A stretch of DNA of 64,000 bases from Amoebophrya sp. A120 (Eukaryota; Protista; Dinoflagellata): positions 10,952,634-11,016,633 of the forward strand of contig CAJINV010000002.1 in the NCBI GenBank assembly GCA_905178155.1, written 5' to 3'. The position numbers and the translations under genes were made by a program. The notes below the pieces were generated by a model, which was given only the letters and a program-made list of their open reading frames with translations, made no database searches and was not told where the DNA came from. This document shows, one piece after another, positions 1 through 60,500 of this stretch; positions within the stretch are counted from its first letter, which is position 1, and the number at the start of each line of letters is the position of its first letter.

Positions 1-3000
1 AAACTTTTGCGGCTGACCTGGAAAAAGTACAGCAAACTTCCAAGGAGGAGCTAGAGGCTTTTCAAAAAGCTAGCTCCGAAGAGATCGAGTTTCTGAAGGC
101 CAAAAACGCCGAGGAGCTCGAGCGCGTTAAGCGAGAGGCCGCAGCAGAGAAAACCCGGGAGCTGGAGAAGCTGCGAATGCTGAACAGCAAGGAGCAAGCC
201 AAGCGGCTGCTGCAGCAGGAGCAGGAGCTGCGGCTGATCCTAGACGCGGAGCTGGAGAGCGCGGAGCGGAAAAAGGTCGCAGCGGTCCAGGACAAAAACC
301 AGGAATGCCAGACAGCGTTGGAAACAAAGGTAAAAGAACTAGCGACCCAGCACACCGCCGCGCTCGAGGCGGTGCAGCAAAATTACGTGGAGAAGATGGA
401 AAAGCAGCGGGCACAGTTCGACACCGAGATGACGGAACGGTTCGCCCTTGCGGAGCAGCTGAAAGCCAACCACGTGGGCGAACTCGGGAAGTTGCGCGCG
501 GACTGCACCGCCGAAATCCAGGCTTTGAAGGCGGATTTGGCGCTGCAGCACGCCGCGGAAGTCAATGACCTGAAAAAGCAGTATGCAATGACGATGGAAA
601 AGATGCAGGGCGAGCACGCGGAGAGGGTGACAACGACGCACAGTGACCATAGCGCACTTCTGCAGTCGAAGGAGGCGGATTTCCTGCAATCTCTCGCAGC
701 GAAGGATGTGGAACTAGCGGAGCTAAAGGACGCTCACGAAGTAACCCTCGACACGATGCGCAACCGCCACGCGGACGAGAAGGAATTTCTGACAGAACAC
801 CACGAAACCAAATTTTCGCGTCTCGTGGAGGAGACGGAAACAGCGAAAGACGCAGCGGACGAGCGTTTTCGCGCCACCACGAGCACGATGGCCTCGGAGC
901 ACGAGGAAAAGCTGACGTCGCTCGAGCGCGACCACGCTCTAGCACTGCAGGAACTGCAGCTGAAGGCTGACGCCGAAGCGGCCAGCCTGGTCCAAACCCA
1001 CAAGGCCGGGCTGCAGGAAGTAGAGCAGCTCCACACCAAGCATCTCGAGGCGGTCAAGCGAGACCACGCGGCCGCGATCGAGGAACTAGAGGCGAGTCAC
1101 AACACCGCAACCAGGCGCCTCCACGACGAGTACGCAAACACGCTGGACCGGGTGCACGAGGAGCAGGACGCGCGGGTCAAGGAGCTGCGAAAGGAGCACG
1201 AGACGGAACTTTTCGACAAAACCACCGAATTGTCAAACCAGCATGCGGAGAAAACGAAGAAGCTGCAGAACCAGCACGAAGAGGAGCTCACCGCGCTGGA
1301 GGAGCGAACGGCGTCGGACATCTCGCAACTGAAGGCCGGGCACCTGCGCACCACCCAGATGCTGGACCAGGCCCACCGCGCCGAGATTGACACCCTGCGG
1401 GAGGAACACAAGGCGGTGCTGGAGGAACTAAGCATCGCCAACGGCGCGGTCGTCGAGGAAACCGAGAAGAGAATAAACAAAATCGAACAGGAGCTCACCG
1501 AGAAGGTGCGACAAGTGCAGGAAGCCAAGAACGTCCTGGAGCAGCAGCGCGTCGCGGACCTCGCGGACCAGCGGGCGCAGTACGAGTCGCAGCTGAACGA
1601 CGTGCTGGAGGAACACGAGAAGGAAGTAAGCAAAGTGGAGAAGGAGGTGCGGCAGGAGTTGGAGGACGTCGGTAGACTATCCTGTGCAAAAGTATCGTAC
1701 TCGTAGTAATCGCAAACATGCATTACAAATCTTGCTCTTAAGGTTTTATTTCTCATGCTGAGAAAATTTGTAATGCATTTATTATACGAGTACGATAGGA
1801 TACTTTTGCACAGGATATAGACTCGCGCTCGAGCAACTGGACGAAAATCTTCGTGCGCAGTTATTACAATGAAAAATGCCCCCACCCCCGAACTTGGGAG
1901 CATTTGTATTCGCAAACCTTTCCAAATGAAACATTCGCCCTCTTGCATCTATCAGCATCACAGGTTTTCAATCGTGAATAGCAAAAATTTGTATTGCAAA
2001 AGGCCCCAGCAAGAGCGGCGCTTGCCATGCAAGCTATGCGATACACGCCTACATTCTGCATCAGAAAGATTCATACTCCTTTCATGCATGACAAAAAGTT
2101 TTCATTTGTAAACTTCGCATCACAAATTTTTGCAATTTAGGGGTGGGAGGCACTTTTCACTGTAATAGCAGTTCGAGGAGGAGCGCGCGGCCTTCACCGA
2201 GGAGTATCGGAAAGAGTTGGAAGTCGAACGGAAGAAGCACGGCGCGGAAGTGCAGGACGTGAAAAAAATGTTCGAGGATAATGTGGAAGAGAAGCTGAAA
2301 GACCACGAATTGGAGTTGGAAAAACTCTCAACAAACCACAACGCCCGACTGCAGGCAGAAGCGGATGCGTGGGCCGTCGAAAAGGCGGAAATCTTGGAAA
2401 AGTGCGAAGAAAAAATATCAGCCCTGGACGCACAGGTCCAGAGGTTGCGGGCGCAGCACGGTGCCGAAATTGAGTCGCTGAAGCAGGAGACAGACCAAAA
2501 GGTCGCTAGCTTGCTGGACGCGAAACGGGCGGAATGGGGCAAGAAAGAGCAGGATTTGTTGGACAAGTACGAAAAGATGGAAAACGAAAATTCGCTGCAG
2601 CTCGCGAAGCAGGCGGAGCAACACTTTGGTAAACAGCAGCAGTTCGACGAGCACGTGTCGCGCTTAAAAGAGGACTGCGACGCGAAACTGCAGAAACAGG
2701 AGCAGGAGATGGTCAACTCAGTCGCAAACGCTAGGAAAGAGGTTGAAAACGATTTCACGGACAGAATACGAGAGTTGAACGAAAAGCACCACACCGTCCT
2801 GAAGCAGGAGCAGGAGAAGGCGGTGCTCGCAGCGAAAGCCGAGAGTGAAAAGGTCGCCGCCGGGACAGCCCTCAGAGAGGCTACGTTCAAAGAGAAACTG
2901 GCGGAGGCGGCGGCGCGCCACGAGGAGGCGGTGGAGCGCGAAAGAACGGCGAGCGCGGAATTCCTCGAAAAAGAGAAGAAGATCGCAACGCAGCGCGAAA

Positions 3001-10738: not shown

Positions 10739-12544
10739 ATGTTCCGAACTTTTTTCGTCCTATCTGTCTTTCCGGTTGCGCTCGAGGGAAGCGAGTTTCG
10801 GGCAGATTCTCCTGTTTTCGATAGTAGCGGAATCGGAATAGTGGTACCAGATGTCATTGATCATAAAGATTGTCCAAATCCTCTAGATCCGGTTTACGGG
10901 GTACCTGCAGGGTTCGTACCGCGCCCCGGTCACACTGGCAGCAGCAGCAGCTCGTCGGCTCCGTGTGCGGCATCTGGTGCTGATATATTTCGCTCAGCGA
11001 AGCAGGAAAGCAGAAGTAGCGGACGAAGTGCACAAGATTTTCTCCCGAATCCGGAACAGAAGTTTGTGGCTGTACGTACGGTTGGCGGACGAGAAATCGA
11101 CCGCCTGCGGACCGATGGGGTGCTCACGCATACGGATTTCGCTCGAATCGAGAAAATTCTCGGAATTGACCGGACGAGGAACAGGGTGAAGTTGATTGGC
11201 TTGGGTAGTACTGCAACAGCAACAACTCCTGGCCGTCCACTTGCCTCCGCGGTCGCGCGAGGAACAGCGGACCCGCATGCACCGTCACGGCATCGCGCAA
11301 ATTCTTCTAGTCCGCCCCGCAAGAAGAACGGAAGAAACAAGATGACTTCGCGGCACCGCTCTCCTAGCGCAGGGTCCGCCCGCGGTAGGCGACAAAGAGC
11401 GGAGCAAGCCAACAGAGAAGTAGCTGATTTAGAATTGGAAGTCGGCCAGCGCGTGCCCGAGACTCTGCAATCGATTCAGGCAGTGGTCACTGCTCGCTAC
11501 CGCACTGCGTTGGACAACCTCCACGAATTGTTGTTTGCCGAGAAGTCGCAGTTTCTGCTGGCGCGTCTCCGTACCACGATGGAGGAGGATGAGGAAGCGA
11601 ACAAGCAGTTGTTAGCGAACAAGCTCCTCGAGTTGCTCGTGACCACGGACGAGACCGGAGACTTAGTTCTGCCTCTCGACAACGACAACACGCTGACCCT
11701 CGAGGACTTGGAACATAAAATTGCCGGTCCTTCGGGAGTGTTGAGTGACGTCTCAAGGGCCGGAAGTTGGGGGCCGGATTGGATGCAGTTCGACCCCCGC
11801 ACGAGTGATGCAGACAAGCTCTTGCAGGTTCGATCTCATGGCGGTATACTCGAAATGCATGCCGTGCTCCACGATTGGCGAGGTGTTTTCATTCAGGATA
11901 CAACATGTTCATCCTATGCAAGAAACGCCGAGGGAGCAGAAGCACAAGATGAAGAGGTGGAGGCAGCTGCCATTTGTGCCGCCTCAAGCGCGAGGCCCCC
12001 GAGCGGCCAGATGATCGCCGCAACTGGTAACCAGAAGGCTGACGACGGTGCAGCTCGCCGGGCTCGGGAGGAAGTCCCGAGACGCGAGTTCGATATCGAG
12101 TACACATTTAAACGAGCAGCTGGAGGGGTTGACGCAGCGAATCCTGGTGCCGTAGCGGGACCTTTGTCAGACGGGGTGCGCCGATCGCCGCGTGTTGGCC
12201 GCCGCAAGGGGCACGACGACGACGACGTTCTCACCGGGCTAATCTTGGCACGCAAAAGTGTTCAATGGAATTATTTGGATGGTCGTGAGCATGATGAGCC
12301 GGAAGATATGTACAGTTTTGCTGTCGATGGATTTGAAAACACCAACAACGGAGCAAAAGTGCAGATACGTCTTCGCGGGTTGGTGTCGCATGACCGTGAC
12401 GAGAGCGACTCAGATGACGGAGCGCAAGCGGGGCCTCAAAACTTCGAGTTTCAGATCGAGGTGACTCGTGCCGACGGAGATATCTACTCCCTTAGGGTGA
12501 TGGAAGCCCAGGCTGACGTACCGGTTCCTACTGGCGGTCAGTAG
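10739..12544 (+). CDS. Intronless hypothetical protein (601 aa) with predicted signal peptide
   Basis: Long ATG-initiated ORF with hydrophobic N-terminus MFRTFFVLSVFPVALEG, a basic patch and acidic segments. No family recognised. Confidence 0.75.
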   Translation: MFRTFFVLSVFPVALEGSEFRADSPVFDSSGIGIVVPDVIDHKDCPNPLDPVYGVPAGFVPRPGHTGSSSSSSAPCAASGADIFRSAKQESRSSGRSAQDFLPNPEQKFVAVRTVGGREIDRLRTDGVLTHTDFARIEKILGIDRTRNRVKLIGLGSTATATTPGRPLASAVARGTADPHAPSRHRANSSSPPRKKNGRNKMTSRHRSPSAGSARGRRQRAEQANREVADLELEVGQRVPETLQSIQAVVTARYRTALDNLHELLFAEKSQFLLARLRTTMEEDEEANKQLLANKLLELLVTTDETGDLVLPLDNDNTLTLEDLEHKIAGPSGVLSDVSRAGSWGPDWMQFDPRTSDADKLLQVRSHGGILEMHAVLHDWRGVFIQDTTCSSYARNAEGAEAQDEEVEAAAICAASSARPPSGQMIAATGNQKADDGAARRAREEVPRREFDIEYTFKRAAGGVDAANPGAVAGPLSDGVRRSPRVGRRKGHDDDDVLTGLILARKSVQWNYLDGREHDEPEDMYSFAVDGFENTNNGAKVQIRLRGLVSHDRDESDSDDGAQAGPQNFEFQIEVTRADGDIYSLRVMEAQADVPVPTGGQ

Positions 12545-13817
12545 GCTGCGTCTACGTATAGACGAAGCGCAAACACCCGCTGTCCTCGTGATCTGAAAGT
12601 TTTTCTTTCTGAAAAACCAGTTCATGCCATACCTTGACGGGTCTCCCTATGCTGACGCAAAATTGGAAATGTTCTACAAAGGCGTGCGCAGCAGTTCCAC
12701 AGAACAAAAGATAAAAAAGGTCTACTTACTTTATTTTGTGCTTTGATAAATATATGCTCATGGCGAACGAATTTTAGTCATGTTTTACTTACGTATACGC
12801 TAGCAAAGAAACGCTATGCGTCTTTGTTTGCGACCGACGAAATGAAAAATAATCGGGAAATTTACATGTGGATTTCCCGCGCGCCTTGTTGTATGATGTG
12901 CCACATGTTATCACATTTATTTCTTGACTTTTTGCTTTATACTTGAGAACAAAGTCGAGATTGGTTATTAGCCAGCCTTACTCTGCACACAAAAATGTCA
13001 ATAAAAGAGAGCGCTCTACTATCTCGAGTACGTATGTACCAGAAATACGTCGACGTGATGAGTTTAAGTTTATGATGTATTTCCCGGGCTCCCGCTACAA
13101 CTGCTCTATGTTTTTTCTTGTAATTCTAATTCGATTTTCGTCATTTCGCAAACTGGGTCTAAACGTAGACATCTAGAACCAAAGATATCAAATAATGAGA
13201 CCTACCGGCTACCGCGAACGTGCTATGGTGCTCAACGAGAATGACCTCAGCGTCTTTATCATGGCCTCTATCTAGACAGTCCCTTGACCTAGACCTTCCG
13301 CTTTTCGAAAGCCGTTCTGCTAACTCAGAACTCAATAAGAAGTAATGGTGCATAAACATACGTATACTATGTCATAGTGTTCTCCTATAATATCATAGTG
13401 TTCTCCCGAGGTGGTGGAGCCAACGAGACCGAGAACTTCTCGATATTTGTTTCAATCATCGGCCCGATCATCGTGTTGTTGTTTTTTTTCATTTGCTCCA
13501 TTTCTTTACATGTGACTTTGGTTTCTGTTCTTGTTCCGAAGCTGCACTTTCCGCATCAATTTTGCGCTGTTTTGGTTTACCGTTTTTGTGTCGTTCTGTG
13601 CTTCATCCACATAGATTGTTCTCGTCTAATAAGTTGCAGAACGCCTGGCCGCCCTGGGTGCTCAGTCTCTTCAACTTGTCTGTTGAGTTCATAACTCCTC
13701 AGTATTCTAGGTTGCTGCTAAAATAAAAAACGAAATTGGTCTACTCATTGCGACAGAAATAACTTGTGGGGGGCCATTTTGCTAGTTGCCGTGATCGTGG
13801 TCTCGCGGCGTCACACA

Positions 13818-16800: not shown

Positions 16801-17955
16801 AACACAGAACCACGCTCGCGCGAACTCGGACCAACGACCCGACCGGGCTGGCTCTTGAGTTCTACGTGAAGACCAAGACTGCACCGAAGGAGGTCTTCGA
16901 AAAGTCCGACGCAAGCTATGGCGTTCTCAAACGTTACATTCTCAATTGTTACATGATTTGTAATACAAAACGAGCATCATCATCAACATTCACAAGGTGA
17001 AGCCACTTCGCATGACAAATTTTGGAAAGGCTAAACAGCACCTAAATCCGTGCGGAATTTGTGATGCTACAGGTGGAACCTCCCTGCTTTGACTTTTGCC
17101 ATTCTTGCATCACAAATCCATGTTGGCTTCGGTCCGCCTGACTCCGCGACCCGGTGGCCTGACCATCTGCGGAAAGGTGCCCTATGGGTTGCGTTTGTGG
17201 TTTCTTTCGGTCGGTTTAGCATCACAAATCCATGTAACATTTGAGAATGTAACAGTTGAGAACGCCATACAAGCAGCGACACGGAGGATGCGAATCGGTG
17301 CTGCTGGTTTTCTATCAAATGCAAAAATGTCTGGGTCTGGAAGAGTCATGCTGTTTTTGCATGACGCAGAAGGTCTGGCATGGAAGCTCTAGCATCACAG
17401 GTTTCGAGAAGCGTTCGCCATGCCGAACCCGCATGACAAACCCCTGATTTTGGTGACAGAAAGTGGGCAACTTTTGCTGCATATGCATGAGAGATTTTTC
17501 TGTGTTCTGAAATGCGCATCGCAAGTTGCAGGCTAACCTTCCAGACCCAGACATATTTGCATTCCATATTTTCGCCTTTGAAACGCATCTTACGTAATCT
17601 CCCCGCGGTTCCCCGCGGCCTGCGCACGCCTGCGGCATTCTTTCGTTCTCCGCGGAGAAGTAGAAGTAGTACTGGTAGAGCTAGTGCGAGCACAGAGGCC
17701 GCGAGGCGTGCTTCCTCGCGTCTAGGCTTTTCGCGAGAAGGTCACCCGGAGTCTTCTGGTGGTAGATTTAGTAGTGGCCCCACAACTAGCACCACATACG
17801 CTGGCGATGGCGGAAATGGCGCCAGCCACATTCTTTCAGCGCCCGGAGGTGCCGGCAATTTTAGTGCCTCTGCTTCTAGCACTTCCACGCCTGCGCAAAT
17901 GGCCGGAGCGCCACTGACGGCTTCCCCGCGGCGGGTGTCCTCCTATGCGCTTTAA
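13818..17955 (+). CDS. U-box domain protein (putative E3 ubiquitin ligase), exons approx. 13818/13911-14756, 14952-16179, 16387-16666, 16808-16916, 17275-17312, 17574-17955
   Basis: VPSELSCPISLQLLTKPVQIPADG..FEQDCLEKWF....THPLTRQEL matches the U-box pattern. GT-AG introns 14757-14951, 16180-16386 and 16667-16807, plus two TIR elements whose removal gives KSDAS|SDTEDANRCCWF|SPLKRILR. Confidence 0.8.
16231..16278 (+). repeat. 18-bp direct repeat x2 within an intron
   Basis: AGCGAAGCGATTCTTTGC at 16231-16248 and 16261-16278. Confidence 0.85.
16917..17269. mobile_element. Introner/MITE-like element, family D (353 bp), 5-bp DR CAAGC
   Basis: ~48-bp imperfect TIR TATGGCGTTCTCAAACGTTACATTCTCAATTGTTACATG...CATGTAACATTTGAGAATGTAACAGTTGAGAACGCCATA. 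CAAGC at 16912-16916 and 17270-17274. Excision is in frame. Confidence 0.92.
17313..17568. mobile_element. Introner/MITE-like element, family C (256 bp), 5-bp DR TTTTC
   Basis: 31-bp TIR TATCAAATGCAAAAATGTCTGGGTCTGGAAG...CTTCCAGACCCAGACATATTTGCATTCCATA. TTTTC at 17308-17312 and 17569-17573. Excision is in frame with ORF 17512-17955. Confidence 0.92.
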
Positions 17956-20561
17956 GTATAACAGAGGGTAGCGAGGATCCGACACGTTGAAATCAAAGCG
18001 CTCCTCCTGCTCTTCGATTATTGGAGATAGGCAACACTCACACTGGCACGGCGAGCTGAGGTGCTGCTGGCTCAATATAGTTCAAATTTTGTGCAACAGC
18101 ATTTATTTTCCAGTCCCGTTTCAGGCGCACAGCCCGCACCGCGAAGGTGTCGCGGTTTCTCGAGTGCAGCCGCGTTGCGTCAGCACGCTATCGCTCTGCT
18201 CTCTGACGCCTTGTGGGGAAATTGATCTGCAACTTTGCCATTCGTATTGGAAGCGAAGGTGCTTCAGATCAGGTTCTATGTAAGTATGACGTAAGTTGCA
18301 GTTCTTCTCATCTTCTTGCCGCGTGATTCAGATAAAAGTTTTGTGGTTGTTTGTTCTATCGGCCTTTCTAGAGTAGTTGCTTGCGAAATATTCCTAGAAA
18401 CGTGCGTCATTTGTACATTAGGTTGCTTGAAGGTAGACCGCTTTCACCGGTAATCAGTAAATGTAACGGGTACTGTACCTGTTCATGGTTCATCTACAGT
18501 AATATCGTTTCGCTTTCTGCTCGCAGCGTCCCACCTGTTACCGTTAGAAATAAAGGAGTAAAGTAGAAAGACGGCAAGCTGCAAACAATGCTCCTGTTGC
18601 AACAGCAACAGGAGTTTACAATGAATGTATTTTTCGGGCTGCAAAATGAAAAAGTGCAGAAGCAAATGGTTTCGTTCAAAATGCCTCAAACAAGGAGAAT
18701 TTCAATCTTAGTTATTTTTGAATGCGCGGGCGACATCACCTCATGATTTAGATTTATTGTAGTACGCTTTTGTTCATTTACATTTTCTTGGTCTGTCATC
18801 ATCTCCTGCATTAATTTGCAAAACAGATCCTGCCCCTACATTTATTACTCGCCCGCCGCCGCAGTATCGCGTGGTGTTTACAATCCACCCCGCGACCGCA
18901 GCTGCGAGAGTTGGTGCTGCTTTGGTTTCCTGATGGGGTCCTGCCTCCTGCGCCGAAGTACAGAGCCATTGTGAACAACATCTTCGACTTCTACTGAGTA
19001 GTATCGGGGGGGCAACAATCTGTCATATCATCATGGTGAAAGAATCGTGGATGGAAATGAATGTTGTCAACAGGACAAGGTGGTAACAGCAAAGAATTAG
19101 TCGCATTCGCAACAGTAAGGCACCTTCGTCCATTCGCTGCAATAGTTGGAACAGTCGTGCTTGGGCTTTCGCGTCGTCGTGATCGTGGTCGTGTTTCAAT
19201 TTCAGCTGCAGACGCAAGGCAACGGGCGAGGAGCGATGTTATCTTTTTCCAAGAGGGAATGCGAATCATGAAGAAAGCTTGAGTAGAAAGTGGAAACTAT
19301 ACAGAATTGAAATATTCGCTAATGTTAACGTAACGGTATCAGAAACAATAAATAAAGTAGTGCATCTGCATGCCCATGCAGGTCGTTGTTGATTTTGGGA
19401 GTACAGGTATCCTTTTCTGCGAAAAAAAAACGTCTACTTTCTTGTACAATTTATCCATCTTGGTTGTGAACTGCAAATAAAGCTGCACTGTTATGAATAT
19501 GTGTACGTTCAAGTAGTTTTGAATACCCTGGGGTTCGAGCTTTTGTTGGGTCGTGCTGATGCCATTTCCCGAAAATACAGAAAAAAACGCTTCTCGCTGA
19601 GAATAAAGTTTTGGACCGCAAAAAATATTTTTCGACAGTCTACGTCAGAAATTTTGTGCTGGGGAGCGCAGCTCCTTCTCCAATTCAAACGTATATTACG
19701 GTTAAGGTTACAAATGAAGCCGTTTGATAAATGTCAATGAATAACCCGCTTTAGTTTTGTCAGGTACTCGCAGGAAGGTACACAAAGACAAAGAATAAGA
19801 AAAAACAGAACCTACGTGAAAATTTCTTTCTCACAATTTTGGCTGAAAGTGGCGCGAATCACTTAGAGTTAGGACCGTGCCGAAGGCGGGGAGCTATTAT
19901 CGAAACTGGTAATCAGGAGGTCTGCCACCTCGTGCTCTTCTCGAGGCGACTCTGATCTATGTAAAAATGATTTTTGTTTGAAGTAGATGAGTTTTCATCG
20001 GCTTTCTCGAACAGTGATCTTTCATTGATTTCGGTAAATGAACCTGCATCGTTGTCACCCTGTCGACTTCTCGAGAAAGTACGATTTAATACTGGGATGA
20101 AAGGTCTTGGTATTAGTTCTTTCGTAAAGAAAGGGGTGGGATTCGTGAATCGTTCCTGGTTGGGCCGCCATTTGTAGCAGGTACTTTCACAGCACTTTTC
20201 GTAGCGTCAACTCGTGGTATCGTCAGTAGTCGGTAAGTATTTCTTTTTCCGATGGCGGTGTAGATGTTGTAGAAGAAATTGTGCAGCACGTAAACACTTG
20301 AAGAAGTAGGAGAATATTTGGGAGGAGGTCATCGACCATGCTCGGTTTTAAAAGTAAGCCTCTAATGGTAATGATGATTACGTATCGGCAGCGATGATAG
20401 TCATGGCAGCTGTCAAAGAAGTGACTATGAATGTCTCTGCCTCTTTACAGTAGAAATTAAGATGAGTTCCCGCTCGTGCTCTATTTTCCTGTAAAGAGTA
20501 CTGTTCGAAGTAGTCCAAGACAAGGAGGCAGCTCTAGACTACTGCTAACTCTGCCCAGAAA

Positions 20562-25092: not shown

Positions 25093-28000
25093 ATGCTGTG
25101 GCCATGCACTGACTTGATTTCTGTATCTATTCCGCGCAAGCATTACCATGATCTCGTCTCGCGAGTGATCCTGATTCTCCTGTTCGGGATTTTTGCTTCG
25201 CGCGATGCTTTTAGTCTTGTCGGGCCGGGAACAACCACTCCACACGCGTTCTTTGTGCACGGAGGCTGGATCCGTCCCCGCAACAAGAAGTTCCATCTCT
25301 GGGTTCGGCAAGGTCCGCGATCTACCCGGGAAGCTTCGAGCACTTTTGCGAAAAGCGGGGGGCTGCCCATCCTGTCGGTGTACACGGGTCGACGGTACAT
25401 ACGGGTCCGCAACGACGCGAAGCTCGTCACGGATCACGAGCGCTCTCTTGCGTATCGACAGGGCGACGAAGAAAATGATCCAGTGAATAGCTTCCTGCAG
25501 AAACAGCGACAAAACCACATCACTCAGATGACAAAAACTTGTAAGTCGGAAGCTGTCCTATGAACTGCAAAAGTGTCGTACTCGTATAAATGCATGACAA
25601 ATTCCCTCAGCATGAGAATTCAGATTTGTAATGCTGATTTGACTTAACGAAAAGATTTGTAATGCATGATTGCAATACGAATACGATACTTTTGCACAGG
25701 ATATGTCCGGTATGATGACAACTTTGACCACGTGGATAACATTTTTCAGCTCGGAGCCGATGCCGCAGATGAAGATCCGTACAACAAGGGTAATAATCAG
25801 TTTGGGCGGACGACGGAGTACAATGAGAAGGAAACGAGACAGCGCGACGCCGACGCACAGGAGCAGCGATCTCTAGCCTACTCTTTGCTTCCCGGCTACA
25901 GGTACGCGGAGCTGCGTTGGTGTACGCCCGCGAACGTGCGGAGCAAGGTGTGGACGTGGATAACCACCGCCATGGTCCAGGTACCCTGCATCGCCGTGGA
26001 CTTCCTCCGTGGGCGCCAGGCGGACCTGCTGCTGCCGGAGGAGGAGCGGAAACACGTAGAGTTTTTCGCTGGTGGGCGTCATTTGTACTCGTATCAGACG
26101 GGCGAGCTGCTGGACGACAGGTACGAGCGTATGTTGTTCGACATTGACATGCGGGAGTGGGAGCACGTAGACCTGCGGCAAGTGCAGCACGAATACGATA
26201 AGGCACAGCTGATCCAGCGCTTTTTTCGCCACGCCGGGCTGCTGAACGGTATCGAGCTGGTGGCGGACAGCGAAACTTTTGGCCACCGCACGCTGTTTAT
26301 CAACTGTAAAAATGTCTGGGTCTGGAAGAATTCATGTTTGTCATGCTTGTCCGGCATGACTCTTAAATCTGTCATGCACGTTACCCAAGAGCTCCGCTTT
26401 TCTGTGATGCAGAAGCGCAGTTTGTCATGCAGAATAGGCAACACCTAGGAGCTCAGAAACTTGTCATGCTGAGCCAGCATTTGTAGCCTCATCATGAGAC
26501 GCCACCCAGCATCACAGGCTTCCAGACCCAGACATTTTTGCATTTGATACTGTTCGAGCAGCGCGTCATGGGGCTGTGGTCCAAAGTGTTGACCCAGCAA
26601 ATTTTTCAGAGCGAGGCGGTGTTGAAATACTTCGAAGAGTACGAGGAGGAGACTGCAAGCGAAGAACGCAAAGCCGTGGGCAAACACCGCCACACCACCG
26701 ACTGGCACTGGCGGCGGGGGGTCATGAAGGTGCAGATCTCGCTGAGCGAAAGGGAGGAGCAACGCTGGCGCCGGCGGTTGCACCGTCGGATAACGAAGGA
26801 AATCGCTCAAGAAGAAAATAGCCGGTCACAGGGGCGGCTTTGTGGCAGTGGTGGTGCAGGGATAAGCTTTAGGAACGAAGACGGAGGTGAACCTCTTGTT
26901 GTCGCAGGTCCGCGTGAAAATAATGCTGCTCCTGCTGCTGCACCTTCCTCTTCGTCTGTTGATGTTCTGGCAAACAGTCCACCACTGATGTCGTCCACTT
27001 CGTCTCTAGTAACTTCGGACCGAACTGGCGCCCGTGTTTTTGCATCGCAAGGATCTGCACCTGAACTCGCAACACGGACCAAGAGGAACTTCGACGCAGC
27101 AGCGCCTTCCACCTTCCGCTCTTGTTGTCCGGACAAGTGCGCGGCCACGAGGGAGCTCATCTTCTCGGAGCTGTCTGAGTGTCGTGGATCAAGCATGACG
27201 GCATCACCCGACGGACTAGACGGCGGCACGGCGGCCCCACTTTTGTCAGCCGAAGCTGAGTTAGATGATCATGGTACGGCATTGGAGCCGCGAGAGGCGC
27301 ACGTGATCGACGATTTTTGCAGCACTGGTGGAGCAGGACTCTTTTTGCAAGAAGGTCGAGAAGGCCGTCGCGCTTCTGCTGCCAGGAGAATGAAAAGTAC
27401 TGCATCTTTTTCTACAACATCCTCAAATGGAGAACACCCTTGTTTGTCAGATTCCTGTCGCAATCGCTCGGAGCAGAATCCCGTCCGTTTCGAGGACGAG
27501 GAGGAGGGGATGGAGGGGACGCGTCTGGTGGAAGATTGCAACGACCGTTGCAGGAGTTTCCCAAATATCAACACGGAGGAACAATCAGCGGCCGAACTCT
27601 CCGCGCGCGGAAATATTAACTGTAGAACTTCCAAGACCACTACCAGTGCCAGTCTAATAGAGAATTTTCAGCTCGAGAGATCATATCGGCAACTATCGTC
27701 ATCTTGTCCGCGCTGTCCTGAAGAAGCCATCAAGATGAAGCAACATGACTTCGATGAGTGCGGGTTTTGGAATAGCAAACGAGAGGAGCTCGCGCCACCA
27801 CAGCTGCAATTTTTACGAACACAGTTTGAAGGTGTGGGATCATCCCATCGGATGAACACCATTTTGCTGCCCGACTCAACATCGAGATCTTCAGTAAAGC
27901 AAGTAGGTTCATGCGATAGTGGTTTTCTCTCCCGGTGTGGCTCGGCTTCAGTGGCTTCGACCCACGCACCAAGTAGCGCATCGGCGACGCCCTTACTGAG

Positions 28001-47643: not shown

Positions 47644-48319
47644 TTAGACAGCTTATCAGAACTGCTCGCGGTAGTTCTTTTTTCTCGCAGCGACGCAAAG
47701 ATGCAAGAAAGATTTCATGCAAAAAAAGAGACACTACCGCTCAGCAGCATATTCAGGATGTATCTGCTGTAGAGCAGAATGCTGGAAGTTTGGCTCCGAA
47801 AACTGTTGCTGTATCGTGTTCGCCTAAAGAACTGAAAAGGACTGGAGTTAGAGGCATGTACCTGGTTAGAATCGCAGCTTTTAGAGGACTGACGCCGAAC
47901 AGAAGCAAAAATGATCAGGGCTTTACTTGCGTAGGTCAAGGTCTGCATCAGGCCCGACGTCATGAGCGACGGTGCGACATTGTGACGAGCGGAGCAGCTG
48001 CTGCCATGCGAGCGGTTGCGGCCGTGTGTGTGTATTTGTGTTTGTTGCCCGCTGCGGTAAGAGGTAACTACTATATTAAGCACATAATTGACCATCCGGT
48101 TGCGGTACTCTTATTGCTGCCATCTGTGTGGTGATGCAAGGGCGGACCGGCCCGCGCTCGCCCCGCGCAGCGAGGAACACTATTTGTCGAACAACAATGT
48201 AACTACAGTCGTGGTCTTCGGCGTAGCGAGGAATAAAAAACGCGTAAATGTTTGAATAAGTGATACCGTGCTGCTACATGCGCAACCAAAGGAAGCTTGG
48301 ATAGACAAGGAAAGACATC

Positions 48320-51300
48320 ATGGACAAGTACACGGAGTTTGTCGCTGCCGTGCGGCGCGACATTAATTGCCTGTCGGACCGAGATCGCATGACCAAGAAG
48401 AACGGATTGGTCCGGCTCGACAAGACCCTGCGCAAGGAAAGCGACCACACTCTAGTGAGTCGTCTTTTTGCGGAGGAGCTACACAAGCCCCTTCTCTCCT
48501 GCTTCGGCGACGGCATGGAAAAAGTGCGCGAAGTGGCTTTGGGACTGACTATGCATCTAATTGTCGAAACGAAGATTGTCACTGGGGAGGTGAGTTCAGT
48601 TGTTTCGCTTTTTCTGTGCCGGTAAGAGGTTTCGCTTTTACTCTCCGCAGCACTGGTCGTGGTCACTCCAGCCTACAATGGATGCCAATGGGGGGCCACA
48701 GCCAGCTGCACTTCTTATGGTATTACGACACAGATTACTTGACGTTTTTTTTTTCACGGCAAGACAAAATCATCATCTCGCGACGTCGCCAGGTGTTAAA
48801 CGACGTCCTGCCCCTTCTCCTTGCTGCTCTGCTAGGCAGGTTCCGTGTGCTCCCATTTCCTGAAAGCAGCGAGGAGCTCCGGTTTCGATTTCTGGAGTGT
48901 CTCGTCGAGCTTACGAAGCTGCCCGGACTGGACGTATCGCCCTACAGCCACGACCTTTTTGACGGTAAAAATTAAGTTTTAAGGTTTGGTGCAGAACCGG
49001 AACAATCAAACGCCGCGCTCGTCAGTCCTCTTCCTTCATTCATTTTTGCCCGACAGGCACACACGCAATATTTCAAGGCCTGAGATTGATGGGATGAAAC
49101 TGCTAAAAATAATAGTTTGTTCCTTCATCGACTCAAAGGTTTGTCGAAGGCCCTCACGGATTCCTTCCCAGATGCAAAGAAGCAAGCTTGCGCTCTGATT
49201 GCAGACCTCTGCAAGATAATCCCGCCCAACAAGGTACGTCTACTTCCAAAAAAGATGAATGGCCCTGAATTTTTATTGGCCACAGAAGCAAGATGCCTTT
49301 CGGCGTTGCGACATGGCAGATAATATACGCAGAAGCAGCTGTTGACGCCTTAGGAGGGTACTATTAAATGAAAGAAAAATTCCTGTTCAAAAGGTAGCGC
49401 GCTCAGGCAAGCTGTTGCTCCCGAACCTACTCGCAAACGTGCAGCACCAGCACTGGAAGGTGCGGAAGAGCTCCGTCGAGTGCCTGATGTACCTGATATC
49501 GGCGAGTACGGAAAACTACACCATGTTGGAAGAAATCTTTCCTATCTTGCACCAGCTTCTGAATGATCGGCACCCGACCGTGCGGCATGCGCTTGCGCAG
49601 TTGCTGATAAAACTGGTGTCAACGGGGCTAACCAGTCACTGGGCACAGGAGCGGATCGACTTTGAGGCGGAAGAGGAGCAGCTGATGCAATTTGATCGGT
49701 ACGAGCACCGACTGCTCTACCTGCTCCTGAACAGCATCGTAGACCAGGACGAAGTGCATGTAGGGAAGCCGGCCCTCGAGGGGTTCACCGGGCTGGCAGA
49801 TCTCGCGAGCGAATACTGGAAAAAATCTGAGGTCAGGCGCCTTCGCCGGGCCAAGAACTTATCAAAAGCAACATTGAATAAATTTAGCTGAACCATCAAA
49901 GTGAAATTCTCGTACTTGTTCCAGCAGCCCGACTGGAAGACTGCATGTAAATCAAATTTCCAGTGCTTATCTTGTATGAGTACTACTACGTCTCGCGTTT
50001 TTATTCTACTTTTTGCCTATAGAACTAACGAAGAAAAACGAGGAAAAGGCTACCACGGCAGCACATTGGAGCAGTCACAAATAGACCTTCAATTATTGTT
50101 TCGCGGGGCTAACAACGGGGAATTTTTCTTGGTTTCAGTAGACAATTTTGGTCCTGTTGATAGAAGATGGAGCGAGCGCAGGCTAAAGTCGAAGCGCAGC
50201 TGCAAGCCGAGCAGGTCGAGGGCGGAAGCACGGTCGCGAGCTCCAGCAGCAGTACGGAGGAGGAGGATATCGATGCAGGTGAGAAACGATAACATGTATT
50301 TTTCATCACACTCAAGACAAAGGCACAGTTTTATTTCGGATTATTCACTACTAGGAGTTGTAGTTGCTCTTAGCACTACGGTCCAGGCGATTGTCTTGCA
50401 GAATCTCTCGTTGCAGCGGCAATTTCTGGGGTCTTTTTACAACAGAAGTCGTCGGTATGAACAGAAAGCGGTTATTTCTCCTCGCCCAGGCATGACTATC
50501 TGTGTCTCCGGTACAACTGCGTGTTGCCTTCTACAAAATAGAGCACATAAGGCAACCACGCGGAGCCATCTTGCACGTCTGCTAGCAGCAGCAACGCAGA
50601 GACAATCAATCTTCAGCGAGATGAAGCAACTGTTTTCTTGTCCCGCCATAGCTGACGACCATGGAAATACGGAGGAAGAATGGCAGTTTCCGGACTTTGA
50701 TTCCATCATCGACGCTATTCTAGATGAAATCACCACCTTCACCCTCAAATTTATTTGTCATACGTGCTATGCAAAATGACTTATACGTAGTTTAGCATTG
50801 CAAATTGTTGAGGGCGATCCAGTTGATTTTTTATTGGAATAGACGCACACGCGTTGAACAGCAGCAACGTCATGGATTTGAAATCCCACCTGCCTTCCGT
50901 GTTCCACGATGCGAGCACGAGCGCAACGACGGTTCCCAACGCGCGCATGTGCTTCTACGTGGCCCGGCACGCCGAGCGCCTGCTGCCCCAGTGCCTGGGT
51001 AATTTGATCCAGTGGACTTCCGACCTCCGCATCGGCGCCGCCCGATTGCTCAAGATTTTCCTTGTGTTCCTGCACCGCAACGCAAAGGACAAGGTCGACA
51101 CCATTCTCGTGCACTTGTATAAGGCCATTGAGGACGAGGATGCGGCCGTGCGAAAAAGCGTCGAAACCTGTGCGCAAAATTTGAGCGTATTTCTCCAGGA
51201 CCCGGGGCTCATCGTGGCGGCGGTAAGCTGCGCCTGCGTCTTAATTTAAGTTTGATAAAACCACAACTTCCACTTGCTACACTTGCTGCTTTTACTGCTA

Positions 51301-53611
51301 CCCGCCGCGCTAGCTGCAATACTACGTGCTTTCTTGCCGTCGCTCCCTAGAAGTACCAAATTGCGCATCATGCGCTAATATTAAACGAGGGACGCGCAAC
51401 ATCTACTAAAAACACCTCAGATGTCAAAGCACTTGAACGTGAATCTGTCTTCGTCCGCATACCTTCCAGACAAGCAAGCCGCACAACATTGGGACGGCCA
51501 GAACGATGAATATTGGGGTGAAACGACGGTGAACCGCGCCAAAGTGCGCGTCTCCTCATCTTCCGAAAAAAACAAGGAAAAGCCCTTTGTGGCAATTTCA
51601 GTGGAGAACAAGCGGCAAGTCCTGAAAATACTAGCGCAGATACTAACCGTATTGTCTTTTTCATTATAGAAAATTGTTGAGATGGATTTTGTATCTGCAT
51701 CGGAATATTCCTGTCGTAGTTGGGTAATATCTGTGATGTGATCAACATGACGTCGGTTCAAAATGTTTAGGTTGTCACTTACGAATCGTTGTCGGGCGAG
51801 ATTCTTTCCCAAGTGATCCGTTTTCTGGAGGAAGCCACGACGCTGGACGAGCTGCTAGCCACGATAGTCGAGTTGCTGGACGGGATGCTCATAGCAAATT
51901 CAAAATCTGCAAGTTCCAAAAAGAGAACTACGGCCTCTACTTCGTCCTCCTCATCGTCTTCATCGTCGTCAAGTGCCAAGCTTTCCGTGCAGCTCGTGGA
52001 GACGAGTGCGGAAAAGAAAAAGGCGTTGCAGGAGGAGTGGCCTCGGCTGTTCGACATTTTGTTAAGGTGCAAGTCAAGCGTCGACCCGATGGAACGGAAC
52101 AGCAACCCCGAGGTGGCCCACATTCTGGAAAAGTCGGACGCAGCTATTCAATACCTCGCGTCGGAGATCTGCGGGTGCGACGTGCCGGACGTGTACCGGA
52201 TGCATTTGTCCTCCCAGCTCGCGGTGCTGCTCGAGAACGCGGACCAGCAGCAGTGGCCGGAGCAGAGCCCGAAGCGGGCGATCTTCGACTTGCTGGTCAA
52301 GAACAGCGTGCACGCCATTTCGCCGGAGCACCTCGACCGCATTGTGCCGGTGTTGGCGAAGCAAGCCTCGACTGCGCTGGGGGCACCGCGACACCAAGAC
52401 GACGAAAAGGAGGCGCAGGGGGTGTCCGCTCGGGCCCGGGTCGACATCCTGGGCATACTGCACTTTCTGGTGATCCAGTCGAAACAGCACGACGTCGTCA
52501 AGCAAGGACTCCAAAAGCACGCGCTTTTCTTGTTCGAGGAAATGTTGATGCCGAATGCGTCCTGGCGGCCGGGACAGAGCCACAATAAGATACGGAAAGC
52601 CACGATGGTCTGCATTCACCAGTTTTTGGAACTCAAGCTCATCTCCATCGAGGACCTCAGCACGGTTTTTCCAGACGTAAGGGCGTTGATGTTTTCCTTT
52701 TTCATCTTGTGGTGCAGCAGAACACAACGAAAATATGATTTTAGTTTGTGTTGTTTCACTTTTTTGAACTTTTTTCCTGTGTGCATTTCACGTCGGGCAG
52801 TAGAAACTAACAGAATACAGCACGGTGTCTGGGTGTGGGTGATCTTCACGTAGTTGATCTTCAAATGTGAAAAGTTTCTGATTTTTCACCAGATGCTTCC
52901 GATTTTGAAGACTTGCATGGACGATTCCTGGTCGCCCGACAATCGCATGGTCGCGACGCTAGTTGTCACGCTGGTTCTGAACACGTTGCCGGAGCAACAG
53001 AAGATCCAGGACGAGCACCTTCGCGACCTGTACCCGGAACTCTTGAAACGGCTGGACGACAGCCAGGACGAGGTGCGAGTGGTCACGTGCAAGGCGTTCG
53101 TTTCCTTCTTCCGCGCCCTGCCCGAGAAGTGGTCGGCGAACTTGTATCAGTACCTATCCTGGCAAGAAAATCATCAACTACATTTATTGGACTCGCGGTC
53201 GTACTACTAGAGTTGTGCTGAAGTGCTGCAGGTTCTTTCCTTTGATGTATGCAGGACCGACAAGCTAGAGGCTTTTTGTCACCACACTTGAAAAATCCGT
53301 AGTGCACCAACGACCTACAGCAGAGCAAGAATCGCCGTGGCTAGTGGAGTTGCATAAAGTACGTTCGAATTTCAGCTTTGAGTTGAGAAAACTTTAAGCC
53401 AGGATGCTCTATTCTGACTTCGCTCTTCATTCATTTCGACGACCCGAACCCCAAGATCCAGTTTGCCGTCCAGGAGTGCCTGGAGGCAGCGCTGCATCAC
53501 AACCTCGAGGTATTCATTCAGGAAGCCGAGAAGGCCTCGCCCAAGGCCGTGCATGCGAAGCAACTGGAGGACCTGATAGCGGTTGCAAAGAACTTGCAAG
53601 AGTGCGGTTGA
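48320..53611 (+). CDS. DNAAF5: Dynein axonemal assembly factor 5 (HEAT repeat-containing protein 2) homologue, ~10 exons
   Basis: Motifs recognised from memory of the family: RRDINCLSDRDR, ESSEELRFRFL, HQHWKVRK, WRPGQ..KIRK, LYPELLKRLDDSQDEVR, LFIHFDDP. GT-AG introns 48590-48792, 48965-49138, 49234-49393, 50279-50842, 51223-51420, 51649-51770 and 52677-52892, plus two TAT-type elements. Confidence 0.85.
49860..50162. mobile_element. Degenerate introner-like element (303 bp), DR GAACT/GAAGA
   Basis: TATCAAAAG...CTGTTGATA termini and a 3/5 DR match. Removal of element+5 nt gives RRLRRAKN-LERAQAKV in frame. A canonical alternative 49832-50163 is also in frame. Confidence 0.5.
53155..53406. mobile_element. 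Degenerate introner-like element (252 bp) forming the last DNAAF5 intron
   Basis: TATCCTGGCAAGAAAATCATCAACT vs end AGTTGAGAAAACTTTAAGCCAGGATG. Removal of element+5 nt gives LYQY-L-LTSLFIHFDDP. The nearest GT-AG pair (53150/53402) frameshifts. Confidence 0.7.
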
Positions 53612-57500: not shown

Positions 57501-60500
57501 GTTATTCTTGCGATCAAATCATGAACAAGGTTTGCCAGCTCGGTGAGGGAGTTGCAGGCGTCGCATGAGTATCAAATGTAAAAATGTCTGGGTCTGGAAG
57601 AATGCAACTTGTCATGCTGCATTTGGATTCCAGAAAAATCTGTATTGCATGAGTACCAAAAGGAATGAAATTTTTGCAACGCGGAGAGGGCATTTGTCAT
57701 GCGGAATAGGCATCAAGAAGCTCCGAAAAAATCTGTGATGCTAGGGCATGCATCACAGACATCAGGGCTCATGCAAAACGTGCATGACAAGTGTCAGAAT
57801 GTTCCAGACCCAGACATTTTTGCATTTGATAATGAGTCCGCACTCGCTGCGGACAAAGAGGCGAGCATGGAGGTTTTGCAGGAGGCGGACCAGGTATCAA
57901 AAGAAAAAAGTTCGTCACGATCACTCATGGGCATTTTTGCAATACAAAATTGTCTGTCATGCGTAAAAATGCATCACAGCCACACTTTTTAAGGGATTTC
58001 CTTAGTGTTTCTGCAAGACAAGGAGAAGTTGTGATGCTCAAAAAATTTGTAATGCAAAACCTGCAACTTAGTGACTGTGACAAACTTTTTTCTCTCCATA
58101 CCAGGCCATCCAGCAGATGGCAGAAAAGAGCCACGCCCTGGAGACCCAGAACGAGACACTGCAGGGGGACAACGCCCGGCTGCAGATGGAAAACACGCGC
58201 CTGTTAAACGACATGGAACGCCTCAAGAAGGAAATCCAGCAAGAAAACACGATGTTCCTGGAGCGCATCGGCCTGTCGCGAAAGGACATCCACGAGGGGC
58301 TGCTGACTGGACACCGCAAACTTCTGACGGACGACGAAATGGAACAAGCGCAAACGGCTTGGACGAATCGCGTACACTCGGAGAAAGAGACGGAAATGCA
58401 GCATTTCAAGTATAATTGTGCCGCGGTCTACTTTCGTGTTTGCTCACGTCCGCCGCGTATTGACACGCTTACATCGAAGATCAAGAAACCGCCCGCTTCA
58501 AATTGATACGACAAATGATATACTTCCCAAAATTATAGGAAACACACGACTCTGCCTCTGGGTTGATGGGCTGATGTCATGCTATGGTAAAGACGAAATA
58601 GCAACAATCGACACCAGTATGTATGAATGGTTTTCCTGAAAATGCTTTGCTGAGGTTCCAAATCGCACACCTCGAAGACGAGATGAAGCGGTTGTATGCT
58701 GGACAGCTTTCCTTTACCCGTTACCTTTTCAAAGTGAAGAGAACAAAAAGACGGTGCGCCGTGCATGTGCATGTGCAGTTTCAAACGCACCGGCTAGAAA
58801 AAATCATTCTTTTTTTTCAATGGCCATGACTTCCAAAAGATAAAGAAAAATGCGTGGAATCTGTAAGAGATCCGGACTACTGAGTTGAAATGGTACTTGG
58901 GTCAAGGAAGAGTTTTCCAGAATACGTGGAAGACCGAGTACGATGCCCGCCTGAAGCAGTACCACGACAGCTACCAGGAGCAGGACAAGCAGATTCAAGC
59001 GCTGGAGCAAGAGAAAGCAGAAATCTCCAAGGCACTGGACGGCGAACAGGAGAGAGCCGCGGAGAAGGACGCACAATTGAGTGCAGGAAAGGAGGAGTGC
59101 GAAACTTTGGAAAAGCAAAAGCACGAAGCCGACGCGGCTTTGCAGCAGAAGCTCGAGAGGATAGCGCAACTGGAAAAAGACCTCGCAACCTCGGCAGCGG
59201 AATCTGGACAGCGGGAGGAAGCTATCCACGTTTTGCAGAAGGACAAGGAGGAGCTCTTGGAGGAGGAAATCCGGAGGAAGGAAAGTTTGTCGGTGAAGGC
59301 CGCGGAGATCTGGCAGCTTCACCAGAAACTGCAGGACGCGAAAAGGGTTTCGGAGCGCCACGAGGCAAACTACGATGCGGCGCGCACCGACAACGCCAAG
59401 CTGCGCGATGAACTTGCGGATCTCGGTGAGAAGCTGGTGTCCACCATCGATTTTCACCTTTACAACGGTGCTTCTCCTTCAACTGGGGCCCACCCCGTGG
59501 CGCAACCACTGGATGTTAAACCGTTCCAGCAACAGCAACTTCAGCTCGGGAATTCAAACAGCACGTCCAGTCTGAATAACAACGGGTCTGTCGCAGTTCC
59601 GGCGCCGAATTCCGCCTCGTTAAAGTCCCGAGCGCAGAGTCTGCAAAACCGCGGCTCGTTGCAACCGCAGCACTTTGCGGGGGTCACGCACGCCGGGGCC
59701 AGTAGCTCATCGCCAACGGATTCAAATCTGGCCTTCTACCCCTACGCAAAAATGAATTCGAAGAACGCGATGAAGCTCGGGCCTGCAAATGCAGAGCGCG
59801 ATGTTTATGGTGCCCGAAGCGGCGCCAGTCCAACAGAAATGGTTCTTTGATTTGCCCGTTGACTTGTTTCGTATTTTGTTTTTGATGCCCAATAGCATAC
59901 CAACCGGGAAGAGCTGTGTGAAGACATGTATTTCTCACTTGATCATCAGAAAGTTTGCGCTTCTCATTTTCATGTGATAAATGAATTTCGAACTACTTAT
60001 GTGCTGTGGTTCATTCTCAATCTTAGGTGATGGCATCTGCCCGTGACGGCACCAGGCTAGTACGGGAAACCCAGCGGCTTCGAGGCGTTATCCGCCTGAA
60101 GGATTCGCAGCTGGACAGCCTGCGCCAAGACTGGCATCGGACACTAGAATCCGAACAGGAAGAGAAGATTGCGCGCGCCAAGGCCACTGCGAACTTGGAA
60201 GATTTGGAACATTTCCTAGAAAAGTGTTTCCCAGCGGTGCTCCAAAAAGTCATGCTGATCCGCAGCGGGCAGGAGGCACAGAGCCTGAATCTTCAGAATC
60301 TCCACGACGAAGGTGCAGCACCGCCTAGTGAAGATCTTGTGAAAACAAGAACGCGACAAGAAGGTGCCCATGCGGAACTGCAAGCAGCCGACGAGACAGC
60401 AGCATCACCAAAGGAACCCGAGCAGTCAACTACAGCGTACCAGCAGCTCGAAAAAGGTGGCAGAGGTGAAGACTCGGACGCGTTGCAGCAACATGACCAG

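What the first reader, a model, noticed from the sequence alone, without database searches (positions are those of the whole stretch)
1678..58100. TAT...ATA hairpin elements with 5-bp direct repeats that must be removed precisely from coding sequence without GT-AG
Seen: eight clean elements (1678-1817, 1862-2167, 16917-17269, 17313-17568, 25559-25703, 26298-26549, 57570-57831, 57895-58100) of five unrelated TIR families. All start TAT, end ATA and are flanked by a perfect, site-specific 5-bp DR (TAGAC, GCAGT, CAAGC, TTTTC, TGTCC, CTGTT, ATGAG, CCAGG). Deleting element+one DR restores the frame in 8/8. Sliding the junction through the DR yields GT-AG (or GC-AG/AT-AC) in only one. Known: non-canonical introner elements with inverted and direct repeats are reported in Amoebophrya, so the class itself is not new, but its removal mechanism is unresolved to my knowledge. 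TAT termini with a 5-bp duplication do not fit Tc1/mariner (TA), piggyBac (TTAA), hAT (8 bp), Mutator (~9 bp) or Transib (5 bp, CAC ends). Inference: one unidentified mobiliser and one structure-guided excision machinery serve all families. No transposase is encoded in this window.
Basis: partly seen in the sequence, partly recalled or inferred. Interest (0 to 1): 0.85.

Follow-up and report, generated by a model that had tools for sequence, protein, structure and literature searches.

The report
Known hairpin introns; stem is RNA
These eight inserts are copies of the already published transposon-derived, non-GT-AG introns of the plankton parasite Amoebophrya A120; the two that transcript assemblies cover are missing to the base, and strand-biased mutations in their inverted ends indicate that removal likely depends on a hairpin formed in the RNA.

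Summary
All eight elements have TAT...ATA ends and a perfect 5-bp duplication; one allows GT-AG. E4 also lies inside a canonical 1529-nt GT-AG intron, and is missing from contigs that keep that intron. About 390 related elements from a public assembly show: duplication length 5 only, frame kept in 80 of 82, no GT-AG excess, both orientations. Added here: private changes in the inverted ends favour G·U-compatible pairs on the transcribed strand (53 vs 25, p=0.002; interior 188 vs 166), pointing to an RNA stem rather than DNA excision. A shared internal motif and a one-sided target motif (both noted earlier in the scan) were reproduced; the latter largely explains the codon-phase bias. The claim that no known superfamily fits is wrong (hAT5 has 5-bp duplications; one A120 family is labelled Ginger, 5-bp, TA/TA). 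Enzyme and cut register remain unproven.

The parts
1678..1817 (.). E1, family A element, 140 nt, duplication TAGAC, in + strand coiled-coil gene
   Evidence: no RNA laid here
1862..2167 (.). E2, family B element, 306 nt, duplication GCAGT, same gene
   Evidence: 92% identical copy in L047; no RNA laid here
16917..17269 (.). E3, family C element, 353 nt, duplication CAAGC; removed as 358 nt in spliced contigs
   Evidence: joint 16911->17270 in 4 of 4 runs of one sample, shorter side 28 nt; frame continuous
17313..17568 (.). E4, family D element, 256 nt, duplication TTTTC; removed as 261 nt; lies 15 nt inside a canonical intron; opposite orientation to E6/E7
   Evidence: joint 17307->17569 in 4 of 4 runs, shorter side 38 nt; orientation
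17298..18826 (+). Canonical GT-AG intron (1529 nt) that contains E4; spliced in one contig form, retained (without E4) in another
   Evidence: joint 17296->18826 GT..AG; contigs 17569-18797/18841/18852
25559..25703 (.). E5, family A element, 145 nt, duplication TGTCC; opposite orientation to E1
   Evidence: P0001 joins across it as element+5; host exons not covered by RNA contigs
25718..25724 (+). Example of the one-sided target motif (A-C-R-A-H-T-T at +12..+18 from the centre of the duplication), beside E5
   Evidence: the C-n-A core lies on one side of E1, E4, E5, E6, E7 and of none of E2, E3, E8
26298..26549 (.). E6, family D element, 252 nt, duplication CTGTT
   Evidence: P0001 joins across it as element+5; not covered by RNA contigs
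57570..57831 (.). E7, family D element, 262 nt, duplication ATGAG
   Evidence: no RNA laid here
57895..58100 (.). E8, family E element, 206 nt, duplication CCAGG; the only one with a GT-AG register
   Evidence: 97.6% identical copy in L059; no RNA laid here

Best explanation
The eight inserts are short non-coding TAT...ATA elements with 5-bp target duplications that sit in host genes in either orientation; they were likely inserted as DNA by a family of cut-and-paste transposases and are likely removed from the transcript by splicing guided by the stem their two ends form in the RNA. Step 1, insertion (inferred, strongly): a DDE transposase makes a 5-bp staggered cut; it likely binds the internal motif GCAWNACARATT (about 40 and 72 bp from each end, 31-32 bp apart) and, for families A, D and E, prefers targets with a similar half-site 13 bp to one side, which biases insertion toward codon centres. 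I favour a divergent hAT-type enzyme (about 0.5) over an integrase-like Ginger/IS3EU type (about 0.35); neither was found here. Step 2, removal (shown for E3 and E4 as an outcome): element plus exactly one repeat disappears, restoring the pre-insertion sequence. Step 3, guide (inferred): the 25-32 bp terminal RNA stem brings the junctions together and replaces GT-AG recognition; the first U of the element is probably read. Step 4, catalyst (inferred, weakest): most likely the U2-type spliceosome of an organism in which U1 was not found, cutting at a fixed distance from the stem.
For: Exact 5-bp duplication with no other length: 273 of 387 perfect at 5 bp, at most 6 at any other length from 3 to 9; duplication sequence free (176 distinct of 189). 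Frame kept in 80 of 82 same-strand confident sites. GT-AG possible in 4 of 64 against 2.3 expected. Both orientations relative to the host strand (family D 30:26, A 14:10). RNA-type contigs lack E3 and E4 exactly, with no room for extra letters by record lengths, while DNA-type run X1 has unbroken contigs entering the ends of E3-E6. Private transitions in the terminal 30 nt on the transcribed strand: G·U-compatible 53 against A·C-forming 25 (p=0.002), interior 188 against 166 (p=0.26), Fisher p=0.017, 121 elements. Sense strand folds more stably in 123 of 212 (Wilcoxon p=0.017). First T mutated at 0 5' ends against 4-6 mutated last A at 3' ends. Internal motif in 325 of 325 elements of 15 clusters, 0.05-0.3 expected per element. 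Target motif one-sided (180 one side, 11 both, 79 none of 270; p=6e-13), predicting 0.48-0.57 codon-centred insertions against 0.53 seen. Farhat: spliceosome proteins nearly complete, U1 and minor snRNAs not detected.
Against: Only 2 of 8 junctions have RNA support, from one sample, as contigs of runs whose RNA status is the tool's guess (they do splice four GT-AG introns); the E3 joint has 28 nt on its shorter side, below the tool's 31-nt bridging rule. cDNA cannot exclude reverse-transcriptase skipping. The plain arm-against-arm count was not significant (G·U 177, A·C 147, p=0.11). The terminal-T asymmetry rests on 4-6 events. The cut register could not be fixed, and mismatches between the two repeat copies are richer in third codon positions (34 of 51) than a one-free-copy model predicts (p=0.01-0.03), which sits awkwardly with a strictly fixed cut. 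No transposase was found in 103 window ORFs or 98 of 396 locus ORFs. Nothing here tests the spliceosome directly.
Confidence: 0.55

Rival explanations
1. Same RNA-stem guide, but the elements are cut and joined by a separate endonuclease and ligase (euglenid-like non-conventional intron pathway), not by the spliceosome.
For: No branch-point or AG requirement in either orientation. Euglena non-conventional introns use paired ends at fixed spacers and leave as circles. E4 is absent from contigs whose surrounding canonical intron is still present, so the two removals are uncoupled.
Against: No candidate enzyme identified. The apparently fixed first U resembles the U of GU if the cut lies one base before the element, a register proposed by earlier scan notes and untested here. 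In euglenids the non-conventional introns go last (review passage).
Confidence: 0.3
2. The elements are excised from DNA (ciliate IES-like, one repeat kept) or skipped by RNA polymerase in transcribing nuclei, so they never enter the RNA.
For: Strand-symmetric ends, a helically phased DNA-type motif, absence even from an intron-retaining contig, third-position excess among repeat mismatches.
Against: DNA-type contigs run unbroken into the element ends (rare variants are dropped by that assembly). The G·U bias is specific to the transcribed strand and to the stem, which a DNA duplex cannot give. Some RNA reads and contigs from other loci carry element ends joined to flanks.
Confidence: 0.06
3. 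The removal seen in cDNA is reverse-transcriptase template switching between the direct repeats across the hairpin; in the cell the elements stay and ribosomes hop over them (a 5-nt repeat always holds one whole codon).
For: Hairpin plus direct repeat is the classic setting for false introns (recalled). It would also explain removal inside an unspliced intron and an RNA-stem bias.
Against: The contigs across E3 and E4 show no branch for a retained form while the retained canonical intron does branch, so skipping would have to be near complete. Seven of eight elements have stops in all frames. Codon-centred sites show 8 mismatches at the two positions that hopping would need identical and 1 at the position it would free.
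Confidence: 0.05
4. The true intron is N-TAT...ATA-N (element plus 2 nt), a relaxed GU-AG intron that leaves one extra codon per insertion.
For: Published annotation of the largest A120 family has NT at 69% of 5' ends and AN at 68% of 3' ends (computed from the row); the frame would also be kept.
Against: Skips are 358 and 261 nt, not 355 and 258, and the record lengths leave no room for 3 extra letters; P0001 has no extra residue at E5 or E6.
Confidence: 0.02

Closest known systems
Introner elements (IEs) among the non-canonical introns of Amoebophrya sp. A120 (Farhat et al. 2021, PMC7789003; abstract, passages, sections 10, 11, 12, 16 and supplement passages read)
   Same: Same organism by a source's name; inverted repeats starting TAT, then seven variable bases and an A run; 3-5 nt direct repeats (a 5-bp example in their Fig. 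S19 legend); hairpin; RNA-supported removal; many families.
   Different: The passages read leave the splice position variable, give no internal motif, target motif or strand test, and argue against transposase mobilisation in A120. The elements themselves do not differ.
A120 introner families in Gozashti et al. 2025 (PMC12130899; passages, all 58 A120 rows and 28 of 60 A25 rows of supplementary file 8; files 13-14 not searched)
   Same: Most families classed as TIR DNA elements; family 38 is annotated 'Ginger; 5-bp TSD, TA/TA termini' with LTR-integrase-like ORFs.
   Different: Their automated TSD calls vary from 2 to 11 bp; here the length is 5 throughout. Whether family 38 shares the internal motif was not testable (no sequence seen).
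hAT5 transposons (named in PMC12730594; passages read)
   Same: 5-bp target duplication; short terminal repeats; repeated subterminal motifs in both orientations are typical of hAT elements (recalled).
   Different: No hAT transposase was found here; hAT5 termini were not seen; hAT5 is described within an animal lineage.
IS3EU/GingerRoot and IS481EU (PMC10045372, PMC6839031; passages read)
   Same: TA..TA or TNT..AYA termini, integrase-related DDE enzymes.
   Different: Duplications are usually 6 bp (IS3EU/GingerRoot) or about 4, 15 or 25 bp (IS481EU); GingerRoot repeats are 100-150 bp.
Euglenid non-conventional introns (PMC11282704 passages; PMC12501133 abstract and outline)
   Same: No GT-AG, paired ends, frequent junction repeats, MITE-like origin, unknown machinery.
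   Different: Euglena uses a short CAG/CTG pair with a downstream purine; here a 25-32 bp stem with TAT...ATA. Unrelated lineage; removal order may be opposite.

Membership tests
Amoebophrya A120 introner elements | Located in the A120 genome | tested here: met
   Window exon is 100% identical to P0001, named 'Amoebophrya sp. A120' by NCBI
Amoebophrya A120 introner elements | Terminal inverted repeat starting TAT, seven variable bases, then an A run | tested here: met
   6 of 8 window elements have AAA at 11-13 at the left end (E3 has CAAA at 12-15, E8 a longer run); logo; definition
Amoebophrya A120 introner elements | 3-5 nt direct repeat at the borders | tested here: met
   8 of 8 perfect 5-bp; 273 of 387 in related loci
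Amoebophrya A120 introner elements | Repeated elsewhere in the genome | tested here: met
   Each of the eight has 5-207 BLAST hits in 151 loci; very high summed depth over elements in run X1
Amoebophrya A120 introner elements | Removed from transcripts without canonical sites | tested here: met
hAT superfamily (hAT5-type) non-autonomous elements | 5-bp target duplication | tested here: met
hAT superfamily (hAT5-type) non-autonomous elements | Autonomous partner with hAT transposase sharing the ends | tested here: inconclusive
   None in 103 window ORFs, 98 of 396 locus ORFs, or among 4 long end pairs; reported elsewhere in the genome only by unchecked scan notes
Ginger1/Ginger2 | TG...CA termini | tested here: not met
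   Termini are TAT...ATA in 356 of 376; definition
IS3EU/GingerRoot | TA...TA termini | tested here: met
IS3EU/GingerRoot | 6-bp target duplication | tested here: not met
   0 of 387 perfect at 6 bp
U2-type spliceosomal introns | GT(GC)-AG ends | tested here: not met
   1 of 8 in the window; 4 of 64 against 2.3 expected
U2-type spliceosomal introns | Lariat intermediate, U2/U6 dependence | not testable with these tools
   Raw RNA runs X10-X12 did not cover the host genes; contigs cannot show lariats

The most novel reading that the evidence does not exclude
Amoebophrya A120 has a general 'undo' pathway: any transposon copy with paired TAT...ATA ends is recognised as an RNA stem and cut out with exactly one target repeat, in either orientation, in exons or inside other introns and before neighbouring GT-AG introns, which made tens of thousands of insertions harmless; the transposases that spread them use one DNA motif both inside the element and, as a half-site, to choose the target 13 bp away.
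Probability: 0.45. Interest if true: 0.8.

Novelty: already known. Interest (0 to 1): 0.45.

Why it matters
How Amoebophrya removes the 60-65% of its introns that lack GT-AG is an open question (Farhat 2021; no resolving paper appeared in searches). The elements are not new, but the strand-specific G·U signature narrows the answer to an RNA stem and gives a cheap genome-wide test. The nested case (E4 inside a canonical intron) gives a ready amplicon for order-of-removal and intermediate mapping. The internal and target motifs give probes for finding the transposase. If a stem alone can replace splice-site recognition, it shows how a transposon family can become invisible to selection and add introns in bulk.

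Tried and rejected
No whole genome was held and the locus records could not be searched by handle, so no genome-wide search for an autonomous element. The viral collection had 0 matches to the family D end. Raw RNA runs X10-X12 covered 5, 2 and 3 of 30 bins, none over the host exons: no evidence on expression. E5/E6 host exons had no joint in X3-X6: no cover, not evidence. A first frame test by ORF length was too noisy to use and was replaced by a codon model. The element+2 nt model was tested and rejected. Cut register: codon likelihood over 43 mismatched repeats was flat (10.3-15.1), A/T polarity gave no signal, and a search for an annotated protein spanning two informative mismatches found none among longer proteins. 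Long end pairs with a perfect repeat: 4 of 1,653, about 2 expected; two have matching ends (L020 1,104 nt, L028 834 nt); L020 shows no transposase-like ORF by eye and L028 was not examined. The lower substitution rate in terminal repeats (2.3% against 4.2%) is not used as evidence because the caller selects on those repeats. Two joints inside E4 (17344->17538/17539, sides 23-26 nt, one run each) were set aside as probable contigs of other copies. A paper search for hAT, 5-bp TSD, subterminal and transposase together returned 0. Roy et al. 2023 was not read.
Full report
1. Observation. The eight elements are at the stated coordinates, begin TAT, end ATA and are flanked by the stated 5-bp repeats. 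A scan that fixed neither the terminal letters nor the repeat sequence found 10 hairpins in the window, 8 of them these; five order-3 Markov controls gave 15 hits in all, none TAT. Only E8 offers GT-AG in any register. Removing element plus 5 nt gives open frames of 923, 206, 1043 and 167 codons through the four pairs. Seven of eight elements have stops in all three frames, and the removed lengths fall in all three classes mod 3. The ends fold into stems with 25-32 pairs in the first 35 positions. No transposase family was hit by 103 of 103 window ORFs of 140 aa or more.

2. Identity. An exon between E5 and E6 is 100% identical to P0001, named Amoebophrya sp. A120 by NCBI. Farhat et al. 2021 (PMC7789003; abstract, passages, sections 10, 11, 12, 16, supplement passages) describe A120 introner elements whose inverted repeats start TAT, with 3-5 nt direct repeats, 29,850 copies in 1,954 families, U1 snRNA not detected. 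These are the same elements. Figures of that supplement could not be seen and may bear on the register. Earlier reports of this scan found the same system in other windows.

3. RNA evidence. Runs were found with 16601-26600. Three raw RNA runs did not cover the host exons. Contigs of X3-X6 (one sample; RNA by the tool's guess) splice four GT-AG introns and join 16911->17270 (358 nt) and 17307->17569 (261 nt) in 4 of 4 runs. The tool marks the letters between as unknown, but record lengths settle it: record 1 has 28 letters after 16911, equal to the matched side, and record 2 has 40 before 17569, equal to 38 matched plus a 2-letter overlap. Removal is therefore element plus 5 exactly, which rejects my own alternative of element plus 2. 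The E3 side (28 nt) is under the 31-nt bridging rule. The joined exons give an open frame of 601 or 684 codons. P0001 joins E5 and E6 the same way, but this is the annotation of the same assembly.

4. The same runs splice a canonical 1529-nt intron, 17298-18826, that contains E4. A second contig form keeps that intron (to 18797, 18841 or 18852 in three runs) but lacks E4. So E4 need not be removed precisely in every transcript, and its precise removal does not wait for the surrounding intron. Contig depths (about 46 against 15 in three runs, 13 against 6 in the fourth) cannot rank the forms, and whether the second form is an intermediate or an isoform is open. In DNA-type run X1 (flat depth 27-30) contigs run unbroken from unique flank into the ends of E3-E6; its joint table was cut at 15 of 135 rows and rare variants are dropped.

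5. Larger sample. Whether it is the same strain is unknown: no unique sequence is shared with the window, element copies reach 97.6% identity. These loci were chosen by a family D end, so D is over-represented. A repeat-agnostic caller gave 387 elements: 273 perfect at 5 bp, 52 at 4 of 5, 17 at 3 of 5, 45 lower; no other length exceeded 6. Of 280 sites with enough flank, 92 had confident coding calls on both sides; 10 disagreed in strand and 80 of the other 82 kept frame. GT-AG was available in 4 of 64 (expected 2.3, range 0-6). Families insert in both orientations relative to the host.

6. DNA-level signals (insertion). The motif GCAWNACA, picked by eye from the eight, was then found in 325 of 325 elements of 15 terminal-repeat clusters in the independent loci, 1-5 per element against 0.05-0.3 expected, peaking about 40 and 72 bp from the ends with 31-32 bp spacing. 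It occurs in both orientations, which suits a double-stranded DNA binder (inference). At insertion sites, C at +13 and A at +15 from the centre of the duplication are strongly enriched (358 sites, p about 1e-34 and 1e-74). In families A, D and E the C-n-A core is on one side in 180, both in 11 and neither in 79 of 270; positions not used for orienting give A-C-R-A-H-T-T, like the 3' half of the internal motif. The side is independent of element orientation and host strand. Per half-site frequency is 0.41, 0.34 and 0.24 in D, A, E but 0.12, 0.08 and 0.04 in B, C, H, background 0.057, so several related enzymes are likelier than one. Insertions are centred on a codon in 102 of 191 coding sites (p=2e-8); preferences measured on non-coding-like sites predict 0.48-0.57, so selection on splicing is not needed for that bias. 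I found both motifs before seeing the scan notes that also report them.

7. RNA-level signals (removal). If the stem works as DNA, G·T and A·C mismatches are the same event seen from two strands; if as RNA, G·U is tolerated on the transcribed strand. Raw arm comparison was not significant (177 against 147, p=0.11), and the sense strand folded more stably in 123 of 212 (p=0.017). Restricting to private changes against 5-10 close relatives (121 of 212 strand-assigned elements), the terminal 30 nt gave 53 G·U-compatible against 25 A·C-forming transitions (p=0.002), the interior 188 against 166 (p=0.26), difference p=0.017. The interior is my control for transcription-linked mutation bias. With free termini, 20 of 376 elements deviate from TAT...ATA; the first T is changed at no 5' end but the last A at 4-6 3' ends, depending on threshold; small numbers. 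The register stayed open: mismatches between repeat copies are 9.9% at third and 1.8-3.9% at first and second codon positions. That exceeds a one-free-copy model (p=0.01-0.03), but the 5.5% rate at non-coding-like sites fits it, and likelihood by register was flat. Earlier scan notes propose a cut one base before and four after the element; I could not test this.

8. Mobiliser. hAT5 makes 5-bp duplications (PMC12730594, passages). IS3EU/GingerRoot end TA..TA with 6 bp and IS481EU TNT..AYA (PMC10045372, PMC6839031, passages). Gozashti et al. 2025 list A120 family 38 as Ginger with 5-bp TSD and TA/TA termini (PMC12130899, passages and supplement rows). Unchecked scan notes report long TAT...ATA elements with a divergent hAT-like enzyme elsewhere in this genome, and one such claim that failed. 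I found no enzyme. I lean to hAT-type because of the repeated subterminal motif (recalled hAT trait) and those notes.

9. Verdict. Real, precisely described, and already known as a class and in this organism. Searches listed no paper that resolves the removal mechanism or reports the motifs or a strand test; the library lacks most subscription papers. The contribution here is evidence that the guide is an RNA stem and a nested test case. Interest 0.45.

Noticed in passing
window 61446-61474, 62732-62760, 63728-63756: Three copies of a 29-nt sequence; the first is in the last coding exon of a gene, the third directly follows an unpaired family B-like right end (about 63702-63727). No match in 151 loci.
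   Followed up: partly
window 62216-62456: Array of short palindromes (about 46-nt period) whose arms resemble the elements' internal motif; with further duplications at 62954-63333 it may be the inside of a long decayed element.
   Followed up: no
window 12052-13346: The only stretch covered by the three raw RNA runs: polyadenylated ends at about 13335-13346, and a one-base insertion after 13110 in 504 of 590 reads of X12 that DNA run X1 lacks.
   Followed up: no
window 42245-46601: Multi-exon gene with many thrombospondin type 1 repeats, a domain common in alveolate adhesion proteins (recalled); no TAT...ATA element in it.
   Followed up: no
window 47014-52850: HEAT-repeat gene resembling dynein assembly factor DNAAF5.
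   Followed up: no
window 24995-25079: A short repeat upstream of the P0001 gene: contigs of other loci match here in X1 and X3-X6.
   Followed up: no
L020:505-1608 and L028:632-1465: Longer TAT...ATA elements (1,104 and 834 nt) with perfect 5-bp repeats; L020 is filled with degenerate short repeats.
   Followed up: partly
L017:635-4090: C-5 cytosine DNA methylase domain split over two ORFs 6 nt apart.
   Followed up: no
L001-L151: Neighbouring elements are often only 30-85 nt apart, as are three of the four pairs in the window; possible local hopping or target attraction.
   Followed up: no
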